Shown: positions 9,792 through 16,211 of the stretch, one piece after another
How the letters are laid out: each line of letters opens with the position of its first letter
How positions within the stretch are numbered: the first letter of the stretch is position 1
Origin: Candidatus Thorarchaeota archaeon
GTDB taxonomy: Archaea; Asgardarchaeota; Heimdallarchaeia; Hodarchaeales; Hodarchaeaceae
Length of the DNA: 32,000 nucleotides
Assembly (NCBI GenBank): GCA_048882505.1
Contig: JBHLRO010000011.1
Coordinates: 1-32,000 of the forward strand
Direction: 5' to 3'
The notes under the pieces: model-generated
What the model saw: only the letters and a program-made list of their open reading frames with translations
Database searches by the model: none
What the model was told of the DNA's origin: nothing
Program-made: the position numbers and the translations under genes

Positions 9792-10187
9792 TTGAGTAGA
9801 GAAAGACGAAGTATCAGTGAACGAAAGATTCGTCGGATTCGAGAACCTGAGGATGGAACTACCACTCCCCGTGACGTAAAAAAGGGTACTAGACGACCGA
9901 GTGGACTGAAACCAAGTGCAAAGAATTATTATTCCAAAGTAGCCTTCGGAATCGGGAATGGAACGATAGCCGGAATTGCCTTTCTTTTCTTTAACTTGTC
10001 CCCAGATTTGTGGCTGGTTTTATTGATTGCGGGACTCGTTTTGTGTGCATTATTTATCCGCTATGTTTTGAAGGTACCTCGTGAAGAGGTTGATAATAAA
10101 CGCCTTTGGCTCAGTGGAACGTTTACATTTATCCTTCTTTTCGTCGTTGTTAGCTCATTATTTTGGATGGTCCCTGGACCAACCTAG
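9792..10187 (+). CDS. Three-TM membrane protein, probable EMC6/OPTI (Rab5ip family) homologue
   Basis: Basic N-terminus then three hydrophobic segments. YYSKVAFGIGNGTIAGI and LWLSGTFTFILLFVVVSSLFW resemble EMC6 TM1 and TM3. AGGAG SD upstream of a TTG start. Confidence 0.55.
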   Translation: MSRERRSISERKIRRIREPEDGTTTPRDVKKGTRRPSGLKPSAKNYYSKVAFGIGNGTIAGIAFLFFNLSPDLWLVLLIAGLVLCALFIRYVLKVPREEVDNKRLWLSGTFTFILLFVVVSSLFWMVPGPT

Positions 10188-10222: not shown

Positions 10223-10978
10223 TCAGATGGACCAATCATCACCATAAGCAAAGGTACGGCTGATTTGCGCGGCCACTAGGTCAAGACCTTCCCCCGAGTA
10301 AGCACTACAAGGCAAAAGAGGTATTTCGGCCATATCTTCAAAGATTTGGCCCGTGCGGAAAGCAAATTCCCGTGTCAACCCGTGTAGCTCTTCTATTGCT
10401 GCATAAGGATCTTCTCGCCATCCCAAGATCTCTTCTACTTTGGAGGGCTTTAAAAGATCGACTTTTGTCATCACGTGCGTAATAGGAAGATTTAACCGTA
10501 TTTGAACAGAAGTAGCAAGGAGATTTACTGAGAGATATCCTGCAATAGAAGAAACCAGAGCTGAATCAAAAAGAAAGGCAATTAATGAAGAGTCGCTATA
10601 AAAACTCCGTGTAATTCGCACACTGGAACTTCGATATGCAAAAAGTTCCATCTGGCCTGGAGTATCAACCAGGACAACCTGTGAACTCTCCCCTAATTCC
10701 TCTATTGCTTCTTTGACGTCATTTATGTAGTCTGCGATTAGGTCAGCTGCAGCTACGATTGCTCCATTTGGACCCAATTGGTATTCATCAACCAGTTGGT
10801 CAAAATTAATATAATCTCGGATATCAATATCTGCTTTGTATGGAATGTGTTGAACTGCAGGATCTAAATTTACGGTAGTTAACGTGGCGCCTTTTGTTGT
10901 TAAGTATCGCTGAAGAGAGGCCGTAAGTACTGTCTTACCTGAACCAGCTGTTCCGACCAGATAGAAGATATTACTCAT
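10223..10978 (-). CDS. GPN-loop GTPase
   Basis: GTAGSGKT, VNLDPA, LGPNGAIV, DTPGQMELF, TKVDLL, SAYSGEG. Confidence 0.95.
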   Translation of the reverse strand: MSNIFYLVGTAGSGKTVLTASLQRYLTTKGATLTTVNLDPAVQHIPYKADIDIRDYINFDQLVDEYQLGPNGAIVAAADLIADYINDVKEAIEELGESSQVVLVDTPGQMELFAYRSSSVRITRSFYSDSSLIAFLFDSALVSSIAGYLSVNLLATSVQIRLNLPITHVMTKVDLLKPSKVEEILGWREDPYAAIEELHGLTREFAFRTGQIFEDMAEIPLLPCSAYSGEGLDLVAAQISRTFAYGDDWSI

Positions 10979-10984
10979 GAAATT

Positions 10985-12106
10985 TCATCTATTATCCAGT
11001 TCTAAAGGAAACGTGGTAGAGTATGGTGGAGATGCAAATAATCCACGTGAATAGTACTTTAAGGTAACACTAGCGTTAAAAAGTTCTTCTCCACTAAGAT
11101 GGGCAATAATCCCTCCCTCAAGGGCTCGTGATCCTATGTAATTATAGACTAGTGTCCAACGATAGAGCGCTTGCACCCCTAAGACTGTTGTTGTAATTTC
11201 TATGAAATCAATGTTGTTAAAAAGACCGTTTGACGATATTACGATTCTGATGGGGAAAAAGAACACCTCATCGGATGATTGACCCCCCTGGTTCCAGCGA
11301 GAACTGGAGGATGGTAGCATCAGAGTGATCATCTCATCGGTAGTGGATTCTAACAAATTCTGGGATGAGGAGCTACTATCTACTGGAATACTGTACAAAA
11401 TTACCGTGGGAGGGGAAGTAAAAGCAGCCATGAGATTACTGCCAAGGAAAATAAGCAATGTAAGCAGTACTAATCCCACCTTAATATAGGAACCCTTGCG
11501 CTTTTTCCTCCATGAAGGAGCGCTCGTGGTTTTCAAGCTCTTATCCTTCTCATCTGATCCGTTTCCCGAGAATAATAAGACTATGGCACTGACCAAAAGA
11601 ATTATTCTGCCAGGAGTAGTTTGAAAGAGAATCAAGAACCACCCGATGTACGGAATACGAACCACTACGATACCAAAGATATCCTTCCCTTGTACTACCC
11701 AATTATCTGGATACTTGTTGTTATCTCCATTCGTCTTAAACCTGAAGGTTTCATTTTCCGCCCATTTATCAATAACTCGATGGACAACTGGTTCCGTTAC
11801 TTGAGAAACATTGAAGACGATTACGTCACCGATCTCGATTGAAGCGGGTGAGACCTTTCTAACAAGTAGAATATCACCACGAAGAGGGTAAATATCGGCT
11901 TGTTCGGTGTTTTGATACCCGTTATAAATAGGGATCATACTTCCAGTCGTTACCGCCGCTGTAGGATGTGTAGCTCCATTCAACATAATGGTTAAACCAC
12001 TAGAAATAGTGATCGCCATTCCAAGAGCTATAACAAGCAGAGCTGCGATTTCTAGCCATCCCCTCACCTTTGTATTTCTCAGTATCCTAGATAGGTCTTC
12101 TTTCAT
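10985..12106 (-). CDS. Signal peptidase I (Sec11/S26B type) fused to an extra TM and ~144-aa extracytoplasmic domain
   Basis: TM1, GSMIP (Ser56), GDVIVF, VVHRV (His109), GDNNKYPD, IPYIGW; then TM2, basic linker, TM3 and a beta-rich domain. Confidence 0.92.
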   Translation of the reverse strand: MKEDLSRILRNTKVRGWLEIAALLVIALGMAITISSGLTIMLNGATHPTAAVTTGSMIPIYNGYQNTEQADIYPLRGDILLVRKVSPASIEIGDVIVFNVSQVTEPVVHRVIDKWAENETFRFKTNGDNNKYPDNWVVQGKDIFGIVVVRIPYIGWFLILFQTTPGRIILLVSAIVLLFSGNGSDEKDKSLKTTSAPSWRKKRKGSYIKVGLVLLTLLIFLGSNLMAAFTSPPTVILYSIPVDSSSSSQNLLESTTDEMITLMLPSSSSRWNQGGQSSDEVFFFPIRIVISSNGLFNNIDFIEITTTVLGVQALYRWTLVYNYIGSRALEGGIIAHLSGEELFNASVTLKYYSRGLFASPPYSTTFPLELDNR

Positions 12107-13950: not shown

Positions 13951-15000
13951 CTACTTACGAAAGAACCCGTGTAACTCCTGCTGGGGTGTTCGCCCTTCGA
14001 GGACGGCCTGAACAACCTTTGCAAATGATTGAAACCCCCGATCAGAGGAATGTGACACAAGTTGGGCCCAAAAGGATGGTAAAATAGCAGTTGCTAGATA
14101 AGACCCCAAATAACGAGCAATATGCCTTTGCGGAAATGTGAAATGATCTTGCGGTGGGGTAACTGAATCGTCAGGTAAGAATGCTAATACTGGATGTTCA
14201 GAAGTCCCCCCTGGGTAAAGATCATCCCTTTTAAGATCATCAAGTCTTTGGGTAAGTCCGATTCTGTATACCCATAGAGCAGCGGCAATGAAGATAAGTT
14301 TTGCATTAATAAAGCTCAATTGTAGCCCTACAGGGCTCCAGCTTAACCAATGTAAAACCGCTGATACAGTTTGGTTGAATTCATTTTGACGCAGATCTTC
14401 GTTAAAAACGGCCATCAACGAAGAGAACGGGGCTGATGGAAAATTAATTTCCCCAAACTTCACTAGATCTTCAAGTAAATGCTTCTCCCTTAGATTCAGG
14501 AAATGCCTCTGTTCTTGTTTAACTCTCTCAATGGTAATCTCATCGAATGGGCTATCAAGGTCTATTTGCTCCCCCCAGAAACTTTTAAAGTGGTCCTGTG
14601 TCATTCTATACATTTCTGAGATTAACTCATCTCCTATTCGTTTATCGGGTTCAATAACCCATTGGAACCCAGACCCACGACCACAAGGATAGATCCAGGC
14701 TAAAAATTCTTCAGAACTAATTTTCCAAAAGATTAGCGGAAATGTCTTGCAAATTAAGGGCTTTGTGTTATCTTCATGTAGTGTACAAAGACCTTGTCTG
14801 GTGAAGAAAATACAAGAATCCCCTCTGGTTAGAACTTCCCCTCTTTCGCTTTGTCTTATTAACCAGGATGAGATTGGATGATGTCGCTTCAAGTACTGTG
14901 CTTCTGAAGGAAGTAGAGGAAGCTCGTATTCTGTGGTACAGCATTTGTGAACACACAAGAAACAATCATATCCGGAATATCTTGAGAAACCTCGAATCAT
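13951..15000 (-). CDS. YkgJ-like CxxCxxCC putative Fe-S/Zn protein with long helical C-terminal region
   Basis: CFLCVHKCC, CIFF...GLCTLH...KPLICKTFP. Confidence 0.8.
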   Translation of the reverse strand: MIRGFSRYSGYDCFLCVHKCCTTEYELPLLPSEAQYLKRHHPISSWLIRQSERGEVLTRGDSCIFFTRQGLCTLHEDNTKPLICKTFPLIFWKISSEEFLAWIYPCGRGSGFQWVIEPDKRIGDELISEMYRMTQDHFKSFWGEQIDLDSPFDEITIERVKQEQRHFLNLREKHLLEDLVKFGEINFPSAPFSSLMAVFNEDLRQNEFNQTVSAVLHWLSWSPVGLQLSFINAKLIFIAAALWVYRIGLTQRLDDLKRDDLYPGGTSEHPVLAFLPDDSVTPPQDHFTFPQRHIARYLGSYLATAILPSFWAQLVSHSSDRGFQSFAKVVQAVLEGRTPQQELHGFFRK

Positions 15001-15056: not shown

Positions 15057-16211
15057 CTAATTCTCAAAATCGGGGGGAAGCCCGATTTGACGTTGGAGGT
15101 TATTTGTCAGTTTATCAGTTCGAGGTTTTGATTCCAGTAGAAAGTCTTCTAAATTTGATTCAACTTGTTTGAGGACAATACGTTCATCAGTATGAAGATT
15201 CCTTTGTGTAATGTGATATTCAAACCACTTACACAATAGCTGAGGTGCTTTAGTCATCACGATGACCTCTTCCTCCGTTAAATTCCTCAATCGGTGAACA
15301 GTTTGAGAGATTCTCGGATCGAAAAGGTGACTCACGGGGTGAATTATCGCGGTAAGATAGCTACGGCCCTTGGTAATCTCATCCTCCTCCATCCAGATAT
15401 CCGATCCTAATGCCCACATCTCGTAATCGATGCCCCACAGGTTCTTAATGGTGCGAGACTCATCCAATTCTACCAAATAATTTCCTGCATTACGATCTGG
15501 GTCATTTAACCAAATATCAAAGGGAAGCAGGAAATATCCGTCGTCAACTTTTTGAATCTGACTGAACGCATCATCAAGTCCTTCCTTGTGTTGATCCAAA
15601 AACTGATCCAAGTTCACTGTATTTGGGATTCTTTTTATTAAAACGGCAAGAACAGTTGATGGGTCTCCTTGTATACTCTTTTCCGTGAGTAATTCTTCAA
15701 AAGACTTTGATGTCTCAAACGAGTATGCATCCCGTTCCGAGTAGCTATAATATTCCTCTGCGGTTTCCGCTACACCTTCCTCATCTAAAATGACGACCTC
15801 GGGATCGAGCATCAATGGTGAAGAAGCTGTTAGTTCGAAATTCGCCACCACCTGGGAACTTAGAATAAGAGCCTTTGGAATTTTCAATTTTATTCGTTGA
15901 CCAAGACGCGAAGCCACGAATTCGCAGAGAACCCGCCAAAGATGCATTCGATCTTTCCCCTCTTCAGGAGAACCTTCGATATCTACATCTAAATCGTACA
16001 TCATATTGACTTCAAGATCAATAAGATTATTGAAGGTTTTAAGCAGCCATTCCTGCTCGTGTTCGTCAATGAGGACTGTGGCCTTCCCGTGTTGTCCTGC
16101 GACCGCCAGTGTATCTTTTGTAAGTCTTAAACGGGTAACTACTACCTTTTTTGATGAATCCTCATAGATTATGACGTCCCATTGATTGGTCATATTATCA
16201 AATCCTTTCAT
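15057..16211 (-). CDS. HipA-like / PI3-4-kinase-like atypical kinase (start may be MTNQW at 16193)
   Basis: Gly-containing loop AGQHGK, beta3 Lys in WLLKTF, alphaC EFVASRLG..I.L.IP, catalytic loop FDIWLNDPDRNAGNYLV, metal-binding GIDYE. Confidence 0.78.
   Translation of the reverse strand: MKGFDNMTNQWDVIIYEDSSKKVVVTRLRLTKDTLAVAGQHGKATVLIDEHEQEWLLKTFNNLIDLEVNMMYDLDVDIEGSPEEGKDRMHLWRVLCEFVASRLGQRIKLKIPKALILSSQVVANFELTASSPLMLDPEVVILDEEGVAETAEEYYSYSERDAYSFETSKSFEELLTEKSIQGDPSTVLAVLIKRIPNTVNLDQFLDQHKEGLDDAFSQIQKVDDGYFLLPFDIWLNDPDRNAGNYLVELDESRTIKNLWGIDYEMWALGSDIWMEEDEITKGRSYLTAIIHPVSHLFDPRISQTVHRLRNLTEEEVIVMTKAPQLLCKWFEYHITQRNLHTDERIVLKQVESNLEDFLLESKPRTDKLTNNLQRQIGLPPDFEN

What the first reader, a model, noticed from the sequence alone, without database searches (positions are those of the whole stretch)
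10985..11509. Sec11 signal peptidase fused to a TM plus beta-rich domain resembling eukaryotic SPC22/23 (SPCS3)
Seen: after the normal Ser-His peptidase and TM2 come a basic linker (WRKKRKG), a third TM (about aa 207-229) and a ~144-aa domain of alternating beta patterns. Known: eukaryotic Sec11 requires SPC22/23, a single N-terminal TM followed by a ~150-aa lumenal beta-sandwich. By eye, SDEVFFFPIRIVI..LFNNIDFIEI, RWTLV, NASVTLKY..GLF and TTFP parallel SPCS3 segments SDLGFITFDI..IFDWNVKQL, LWDKIV, NVTLTLSW..GIL and VPFP as recalled. Inference: a single-chain precursor or analogue of the catalytic core of the eukaryotic signal peptidase complex. An alternative is that TM3 (..NLMAAF) is an internal signal cleaved in cis.
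Basis: inference. Interest (0 to 1): 0.75.

Follow-up and report, generated by a model that had tools for sequence, protein, structure and literature searches.

The report
Heimdall-type Sec11 with built-in partner domain
The only signal peptidase of this Hodarchaeales (Asgard) archaeon carries a third membrane helix and an Ig-like beta-sandwich predicted to dock on its catalytic core, much as the essential subunit SPC22/23 does in eukaryotes, but no test here showed common ancestry with SPC22/23.

Summary
ORF 10985-12106 (-) encodes a 373-aa protein: an archaeal/ER-type Sec11 signal peptidase (Ser56, His109, Asp128), then TM2, a charged linker, TM3 and a 143-aa all-beta domain. It is the only Sec11 in a 94.6%-complete genome.

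The same fusion occurs in 74 of 82 other genomes of the class. It also occurs in MAGs labelled Njordarchaeales and Wukongarchaeota. It was not found in the other Asgard families scanned, where four sampled Sec11 genes are short.

The C-module folds with high confidence (pLDDT 92) as a generic Ig-like sandwich. The best structural matches are the TMEM106B lumenal domain and RhoGDI. Complex prediction places it on the catalytic core (ipSAE 0.76, best control 0.00), with the near-invariant Trp317 in the interface.

The claimed sequence resemblance to SPCS3 fails every test:
- no PF04573 hit in 71 scans of C-modules;
- hhalign probability 0.34% or less against real SPCS3/Spc3 alignments;
- BLASTP E = 1.0;
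- the SPCS3 chain is absent from the top 50 structural matches.

Best reading: a built-in accessory domain that works like SPC22/23. Common ancestry is unproven, about 20%. No description was found in the searchable literature. An earlier first-stage note in this scan (e1-5394856) raised the same idea on another genome, unverified.

The parts
10985..12106 (-). Whole ORF, 373 aa plus stop: Sec11-type signal peptidase I with a C-terminal TM3 and beta-sandwich module
   Evidence: It is the only TIGR02228 match in the genome.
11984..12106 (-). Basic cytoplasmic N-tail and TM1 (aa 1-41)
   Evidence: AlphaFold2 helix 12-41. K/R-rich tail read from the sequence. The start codon may instead lie at residue 14.
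11651..11974 (-). Extracytoplasmic catalytic domain (aa 45-152): Ser56 at 11939-11941, His109 at 11780-11782, Asp128 at 11723-11725, Asp134 at 11705-11707
   Evidence: TIGR02228, 76 bits against a cut-off of 51.85. The domain profile hits only human SEC11C and SEC11A among PDB sequences, E 4e-25. S56, H109 and D128 are invariant. Codons checked.
11567..11650 (-). TM2 (aa 153-180)
   Evidence: AlphaFold2 helices 155-162 and 164-180. Conserved GW..L..Q motif.
11489..11566 (-). Cytoplasmic charged linker (aa 181-206), ending in WRKKRKG
   Evidence: pLDDT below 50 for residues 182-203. Its length varies and it is acidic then basic in relatives.
11417..11488 (-). TM3 (aa 207-230), a type II anchor for the C-domain
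   Evidence: AlphaFold2 helix 199-230 in the full model and helix 2-28 in the module model.
10988..11416 (-). Ig-like beta-sandwich domain (aa 231-373). Near-invariant Trp317 at 11156-11158 and Gly325 at 11132-11134.
   Evidence: Module model pLDDT 91.7. Fold matches. Predicted interface with the catalytic core. Conservation.
10223..10978 (-). GPN-loop GTPase gene 6 bp downstream (context only, not part of the enzyme)
   Evidence: PF03029, E 2e-52. The adjacency is kept in the Hodarchaeales loci.

Best explanation
This is the housekeeping type I signal peptidase of a Hodarchaeales archaeon, with an accessory domain built into the same chain. Shown by family match: the N-terminal half is a Ser-His(-Asp) Sec11/S26B peptidase. 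Inferred from the sequence and the models: TM1 holds the catalytic domain on the outer face, TM2 returns the chain to the cytoplasm, and after a charged linker TM3 exports a 143-aa Ig-like beta-sandwich to the same outer face. Predicted: the sandwich packs on the side of the catalytic core. That side is formed by Box C (aa 91-95), the residues just after the catalytic His (110-117), the hairpin 122-126, the GDN/Asp loop (126-135) and strand 147-150. Ser56 is not in the interface, and residues 103-108 are also absent from the contact list, so the substrate groove is probably left open. Inferred function: the sandwich stabilises the small catalytic core, which lacks domain II, and fixes the Asp loop and active site at the membrane surface. 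This is the job assigned to SPC22/23 (SPCS3/Spc3) in the eukaryotic signal peptidase complex. It therefore works like a single-chain SEC11 plus SPC22/23 core. Whether the sandwich shares ancestry with SPC22/23 is left open.
For: The N-domain matches TIGR02228 at 76 bits and its profile hits human SEC11C/A at E 4e-25. It is the sole Sec11 in a 94.6%-complete genome. In Hodarchaeales, both modules lie in one frame in all 21 other genomes of the genus and in one genome of the sister family. Across the class, 74 of 82 other genomes carry the module. The fusion is also present in MAGs labelled Njordarchaeales and Wukongarchaeota. No free-standing copy was found in 400 Asgard genomes. Structure models are confident: full length pLDDT 80.6 and pTM 0.75, C-module pLDDT 91.7. 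Complex prediction of residues 1-185 against 203-373 gave a median ipSAE of 0.76, with 0.00 for the best of 3 controls. That mark was reached by 58 of 80 solved complexes and 2 of 110 mismatched pairs. The runs agree in at least 85% of contacts and the partner's pLDDT is at least 81. The near-invariant Trp317 touches the invariant Arg110 and Gly93 in the model. Liaci et al. (bioRxiv 10.1101/2020.11.11.378711) describe SPC22/23 as one TM helix plus a lumenal beta-sandwich that embraces the SEC11 core.
Against: Everything about packing and function is prediction; there are no experimental data. The calibration of the complex score holds only roughly with my own alignments. A similar complex (SEC11 with SPC22/23, PDB 7P2P) is solved, so the pass may reflect the model's memory of that likeness. 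Conservation is only weakly enriched at the predicted interface (C-domain permutation p = 0.08; catalytic side p = 0.03, confounded by catalytic motifs). The fold is a very common one, so it says nothing about function. Four sampled genomes of other Asgard families encode Sec11 without this module (open frames of 216-267 aa), so the domain is not needed by Sec11 as such.
Confidence: 0.6

Rival explanations
1. True homologue or ancestor of SPC22/23. The Heimdall-clade fusion would be the ancestral state. In the eukaryotic stem the gene split between TM2 and TM3, giving SEC11 and SPC22/23, and the sequences have since diverged beyond recognition.
For: The module has the same order and topology: a short cytoplasmic segment, one TM helix and a beta-sandwich of about 145 aa on the far side of the membrane. 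It has the same predicted partner. The phyletic range covers Hodarchaeales, the rest of Heimdallarchaeia, and MAGs labelled Njordarchaeales and Wukongarchaeota. It was not found in 135 genomes of the largest other Asgard family. Liaci et al. state that SPC22/23 has no known pre-eukaryotic origin. No separate SPC22, SPC25 or SPC12 gene was found in this genome.
Confidence: 0.2
2. TM3 is an internal signal-anchor that is cleaved, in cis or in trans. The beta domain would then be released, or held non-covalently, as a processed product.
For: In most Hodarchaeales sequences the end of TM3 has a small residue followed by a hydrophobic one and then xxPS(V/I). Examples are LMAA/F, IGS/L and ISA/L, which could fit the -3/-1 rule (by eye).
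Against: The pattern is missing in the other families that carry the module, where the same position reads VPAMLED, IVPNFLP or VVGFFGF. The junction (aa 227-233) and Ser56 are not among the predicted contacts. No NCBIfam model, including the SipW-type signal peptide model, matched residues 195-373. A released cargo would not need a conserved interface with the enzyme.
Confidence: 0.08
3. The sandwich has a job unrelated to catalysis, for example binding the cell envelope or S-layer, binding substrates or other translocon parts, or oligomerisation. It is tethered to Sec11 only for co-localisation.
For: The fold is generic and shared with adhesins, pilins and S-layer proteins. Conservation outside the predicted interface is similar to that inside it.
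Against: The docking prediction has clean controls. The best-conserved exposed residue, Trp317, lies in the predicted interface. The one-to-one fusion with the only Sec11 is kept across several orders.
Confidence: 0.12

Closest known systems
Eukaryotic signal peptidase complex core: SEC11A/C with SPC22/23 (SPCS3, yeast Spc3); PDB 7P2P/7P2Q
   Same: The catalytic half is a clear homologue of SEC11. The partner module has the same layout: one TM helix, then an all-beta sandwich of about 145 aa on the non-cytoplasmic side. It is predicted to pack on the catalytic core, as SPC22/23 is described to do.
   Different: Here it is one polypeptide, joined through an extra TM2 and a cytoplasmic linker. 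No sequence or profile similarity to PF04573 was found. No SPCS3-specific structural match was found. No SPC12 or SPC25 is detectable in the genome.
Ordinary archaeal Sec11-type signal peptidase I (TIGR02228)
   Same: The family model matches and the Ser/His/Asp residues, N-terminal anchor and C-terminal hydrophobic helix are shared. Sec11 genes from four genomes of other Asgard families match the same N-domain profile.
   Different: Those genes stop after TM2 (open frames of 216-267 aa). This one continues for about 190 aa with the linker, TM3 and the beta-sandwich. Public records label it only 'signal peptidase I'.
TMEM106B lumenal domain / LEA-2-type sandwich (PDB 8B7D)
Domain II of bacterial signal peptidase I (E. 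coli LepB)
   Same: It is an extra beta domain that buttresses the catalytic domain I. The predicted contacts here include the segment between the His box and the GDN box (aa 110-126), which is where domain II is inserted in LepB. That comparison rests on my own knowledge of LepB and on inference.
   Different: Domain II is an insertion inside the catalytic domain. It is not a separately anchored C-terminal module, and no homology was tested or is claimed.

Membership tests
Sec11 / S26B archaeal-ER type signal peptidase I (TIGR02228) | Match to the family model above its curated cut-off | tested here: met
   76 bits against a cut-off of 51.85, residues 24-179. In six frames, 75.8 bits.
Sec11 / S26B archaeal-ER type signal peptidase I (TIGR02228) | Catalytic Ser and His (not Lys), plus the conserved Asp of the GDN box | tested here: met
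   S56, H109 and D128 are invariant, and D134 is at least 90% conserved, in 27-32 relatives. They align with the SGSM, VHRV and KGDN motifs of human SEC11A/C.
Sec11 / S26B archaeal-ER type signal peptidase I (TIGR02228) | N-terminal membrane anchor with the catalytic domain outside the cytoplasm | tested here: inconclusive
   AlphaFold2 predicts a helix at 12-41 and the N-tail is basic. The topology is inferred, not measured.
SPC22/23 (SPCS3/Spc3, PF04573) | Sequence match to PF04573 | tested here: not met
   No hit at E up to 10 in 71 scans of C-modules, in P0001 itself, or in the genome's six frames.
SPC22/23 (SPCS3/Spc3, PF04573) | Profile-profile similarity to an SPC22/23 alignment | tested here: not met
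   hhalign probability was 0.34% (A4 against vertebrates), then 0.13%, 0.21% and 0.14% (A4, A2 and A8 against vertebrates plus yeasts). The SPC22 alignment covers only two eukaryotic groups (Neff 3.6), so sensitivity is limited.
SPC22/23 (SPCS3/Spc3, PF04573) | One N-terminal TM helix followed by a beta-sandwich of about 150 aa on the non-cytoplasmic side | tested here: met
   In the module model (pLDDT 91.7), a helix at 2-28 is followed by nine strands. This is a prediction only.
SPC22/23 (SPCS3/Spc3, PF04573) | Fold specifically like the solved SPC22/23 lumenal domain | tested here: inconclusive
   No SPCS3 chain appears among the rows shown by Foldseek or VIA-align. No direct superposition could be run.
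SPC22/23 (SPCS3/Spc3, PF04573) | Binds the lumenal catalytic core of Sec11 | tested here: met
   Prediction only: ipSAE 0.76 against 0.00 for the best control. The mark was reached by 58 of 80 solved complexes and 2 of 110 mismatched pairs. The pass may reflect the model's memory of the solved SEC11-SPC22/23 complex.
SPC22/23 (SPCS3/Spc3, PF04573) | A separate subunit encoded by its own gene | tested here: not met
   It is always in one frame with Sec11. No free-standing copy was found in 400 Asgard genomes.
LEA-2 / TMEM106B-like sandwich (PF03168) | Sequence match to the family model | tested here: not met
SipW-type signal peptide / cargo (NCBIfam models) | Match of TM3 and the following region to a signal-peptide or cargo model | tested here: not met
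   No NCBIfam family matched residues 195-373 at E up to 10.

The most novel reading that the evidence does not exclude
The C-terminal TM3 plus beta-sandwich module of Heimdall-clade Sec11 is the direct ancestor of SPC22/23. On this reading the catalytic heterodimer of the eukaryotic signal peptidase complex arose by fission of a single archaeal gene that is still intact in Hodarchaeales, and the sequences have diverged beyond what profile methods can detect.
Probability: 0.2. Interest if true: 0.85.

Novelty: new variant of a known kind. Interest (0 to 1): 0.62.

Why it matters
SPC22/23 is essential for ER signal peptidase activity and is held to have appeared with eukaryotes (Liaci et al.). 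No archaeal counterpart turned up in the papers I could search. This work shows that the archaeal lineages usually placed closest to eukaryotes carry, fused to their only Sec11, a membrane-anchored beta-sandwich with the same layout and the same predicted partner. These lineages are Hodarchaeales, other Heimdallarchaeia, and MAGs labelled Njordarchaeales and Wukongarchaeota. The other Asgard families scanned lack the module. This gives a concrete and testable candidate for how the two-part catalytic core of the complex arose, by fission or by convergence. It also offers a simple single-chain system for studying what such a partner domain does for a Sec11 peptidase. Public annotation currently hides the feature under the name 'signal peptidase I'.

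Tried and rejected
1. Pfam and NCBIfam on the C-module gave no family, only scattered fn3/Ig noise.

2. C-module profiles against PDB sequences gave only weak antibody VH-like hits (best E 0.02). SPCS3 was not hit.

3. A phmmer search of 1.84 billion representative proteins with aa 195-373 found only 13 hits. All were Sec11 fusions or fragments.

4. Real SPCS3/Spc3 sequences were not otherwise reachable, so I used two short baits recalled from memory (50 and 44 aa). Both matched named SPCS3 and S. cerevisiae Spc3 entries at 100% identity. Only the returned database sequences were used afterwards. hhalign, BLASTP and a shuffle test then found no relationship.

5. Fold searches with Foldseek PDB, VIA second look, VIA wide and ESM Atlas gave generic Ig-like sandwiches. 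No SPCS3 or ASF1 row was shown.

6. An Atlas look-up starting from yeast Spc3 gave nothing usable.

7. The search for a free-standing C-module gave only two off-frame candidates. One (G321) lies antisense to an 878-aa gene and is spurious. The other (G118) is a weak partial hit inside a 1332-aa frame and was not pursued.

8. SPC25 and SPC12 searches in the genome gave only noise at the level of the control genomes.

10. I could not obtain model coordinates. So I could not superpose on 7P2P or check whether the docking face matches that of SPC22/23.

Full report
**Observation.** The finding's coordinates (10985-11509) are the 3' part of one minus-strand ORF, 10985-12106, of 373 aa.
- a peptidase domain, then a second hydrophobic helix (aa 153-180);
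- the linker GNGSDEKDKSLKTTSAPSWRKKRKGS;
- a third hydrophobic helix (about aa 207-230);
- 143 residues with alternating beta patterns.

Public gene calls start at residue 14, so the exact start codon is uncertain. This does not affect the finding.

**The N-terminal half.** Residues 24-179 match TIGR02228, archaeal signal peptidase I, at 76 bits against a cut-off of 51.85. A profile of this half from 27 relatives hits only human SEC11C and SEC11A among all PDB chain sequences (E 4e-25 and 1e-24). The SGSM, VHRV and KGDN boxes align. Ser56, His109 and Asp128 are invariant, and Asp134 is nearly so. It is the only match to this family in the genome, which is 94.6% complete. This is therefore the housekeeping enzyme, not a spare paralogue. 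The neighbouring genes are housekeeping genes: a GPN-loop GTPase 6 bp downstream, AMMECR1, ribosomal protein L44e and methionyl-tRNA synthetase.

**Organism.** The closest public relatives are MAGs labelled Candidatus Hodarchaeota, Hodarchaeum mangrovi or Heimdallarchaeota. The window therefore comes from a Hodarchaeales archaeon (Asgard).

**The C-terminal module is conserved and always fused.**
- A six-frame search with aa 195-373 found it in all 21 other genomes of the genus and in one genome of the sister family. In each case it lies in the same frame as Sec11.
- A phmmer search of 1.84 billion representative proteins found only 13 hits, all Sec11 fusions or fragments.
- Across the class, TIGR02228 matches lie in open frames of about 360-450 aa. 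The C-terminal parts from seven families align, with Trp317 and Gly325 nearly invariant.
- A profile of 28 modules found the domain in 74 of 82 other genomes of the class. It also found it in two further groups.
- In those groups the module is again in one frame with Sec11. Source names for these proteins are Njordarchaeales, Wukongarchaeota and Heimdallarchaeota.
- It was not found in 135 genomes of the largest other Asgard family, nor in several smaller ones.
- Sec11 genes sampled from four such genomes lie in frames of 216-267 aa and match only the N-domain profile.
- No free-standing copy was found. One candidate was antisense to an 878-aa gene and is spurious.

**Structure.** AlphaFold2 with my alignment gave a full-length model with pLDDT 80.6 and pTM 0.75. 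Only the linker (182-203) is disordered. The module alone gave pLDDT 91.7: one long helix followed by nine strands. Fold searches agree that it is a common Ig-like sandwich:
- Foldseek: RhoGDI, an S-layer protein, ApaG, the TMEM106B lumenal domain and arrestin.
- ESM Atlas: LEA_2, ApaG, DUF1616 and CARDB.

The full-length model's top matches are human SEC11C and SEC11A, which cover the catalytic half. No SPCS3 chain appears in any list shown.

**Does the domain touch the catalytic core?** I split the protein into residues 1-185 and 203-373, each with its alignment, and ran the complex test.
- The median ipSAE was 0.76 and the best of three controls scored 0.00.
- That mark was reached by 58 of 80 solved complexes and 2 of 110 mismatched pairs.
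- The runs agree in at least 85% of contacts and the partner's pLDDT is at least 81.

The contacts on the catalytic side are residues 91-95, 110-117, 122-137 and 147-150. These cover Box C, the residues after the catalytic His, and the GDN/Asp loop. Ser56 and residues 103-108 are not listed, so the substrate groove is probably left open. On the module side the contacts include 281-285 and 314-321. Trp317 is paired with Arg110 and Gly93.

Three caveats apply. The calibration holds only roughly with my own alignments. A similar complex is solved, so the pass may reflect the model's memory. Conservation is only weakly enriched at the interface (p = 0.08 for the module).

**Is it SPC22/23?** Liaci et al. 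describe SPC22/23 as one TM helix plus an extended lumenal beta-sandwich that embraces the SEC11 core. They say the accessory subunits seem to have arisen with eukaryotes. The layout here is the same, but every test of relatedness was negative:
- PF04573 gave no hit in the genome or in 71 scans of C-modules at E up to 10.
- Module profiles do not hit SPCS3 chains among PDB sequences.
- I fetched real SPCS3 and Spc3 proteins using two short baits recalled from memory. Both matched source-named entries at 100% identity. From the returned sequences I built alignments of vertebrates (A6) and of vertebrates plus yeasts (A7).
- hhalign gave probabilities of 0.34%, 0.13%, 0.21% and 0.14%, with a different short register each time. 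Global mode gave nothing.
- BLASTP gave E = 1.0.
- The mean local alignment score is z = 2.65 above shuffled sequences, but hardly above reversed sequences.

The SPC22 alignment spans only two eukaryotic groups, and I could not run a direct superposition. Very distant homology is therefore not excluded.

**The cleavage alternative.** In the Hodarchaeales genus the end of TM3 often has a small residue before a hydrophobic one. The other families that carry the module lack any such pattern. The junction is not placed at the active site in the model. No signal-peptide or cargo model matched. I rate this alternative low.

**Most likely mechanism.**
- Shown: this is a Sec11 peptidase, the only one in the genome.
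- Inferred: TM1, TM2 and TM3 place both extracytoplasmic domains on the outer face.
- Predicted: the sandwich docks on the flank of the catalytic core next to the Asp loop.
- Inferred function: it stabilises and positions a minimal catalytic domain at the membrane surface, as proposed for SPC22/23.

Common ancestry with SPC22/23 is possible, about 20%, but unproven.

**Novelty.** Searches of the held literature for Asgard or Heimdallarchaeota together with signal peptidase, SPCS3 or Sec11 found no description of this architecture. An earlier first-stage note in this scan (e1-5394856) raised the same idea on another genome, unverified.

Noticed in passing
window 10223-10978 (-): A GPN-loop GTPase gene (PF03029) lies 6 bp downstream of the peptidase gene on the same strand. 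The same adjacency is seen in every Hodarchaeales locus held, but not in loci from other Heimdallarchaeia families.
   Followed up: partly
window 11882-11923 (-), aa 62-75: The Hodarchaeales Sec11 proteins have an insertion of about 12-14 aa (NGYQNTEQADIYPL) between the catalytic Ser box and the RGD box. It is absent from human SEC11A/C and from most other Heimdallarchaeia families, though two aligned sequences outside Hodarchaeales (L051, L047) carry residues there.
   Followed up: no
window 9792-10187 (+): A 131-aa ORF with a very basic N-terminus and two hydrophobic stretches has no Pfam match.
   Followed up: no
window 13951-15000 (-) and 15057-16211 (-): Two adjacent ORFs of 349 and 384 aa have no Pfam family at E up to 0.001.
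   Followed up: no
G062:C121:7221-7652, G078:C188:2833-3264, G013:C14, G020:C149: Some relatives have a second Sec11 copy, or Sec11 in much longer open frames (451-567 aa). This hints at further architectures.
   Followed up: no
L023:538-1761 (G058): One Hodarchaeales relative has an insertion of about 30 aa inside the beta domain, just before the conserved FYPI strand.
   Followed up: no
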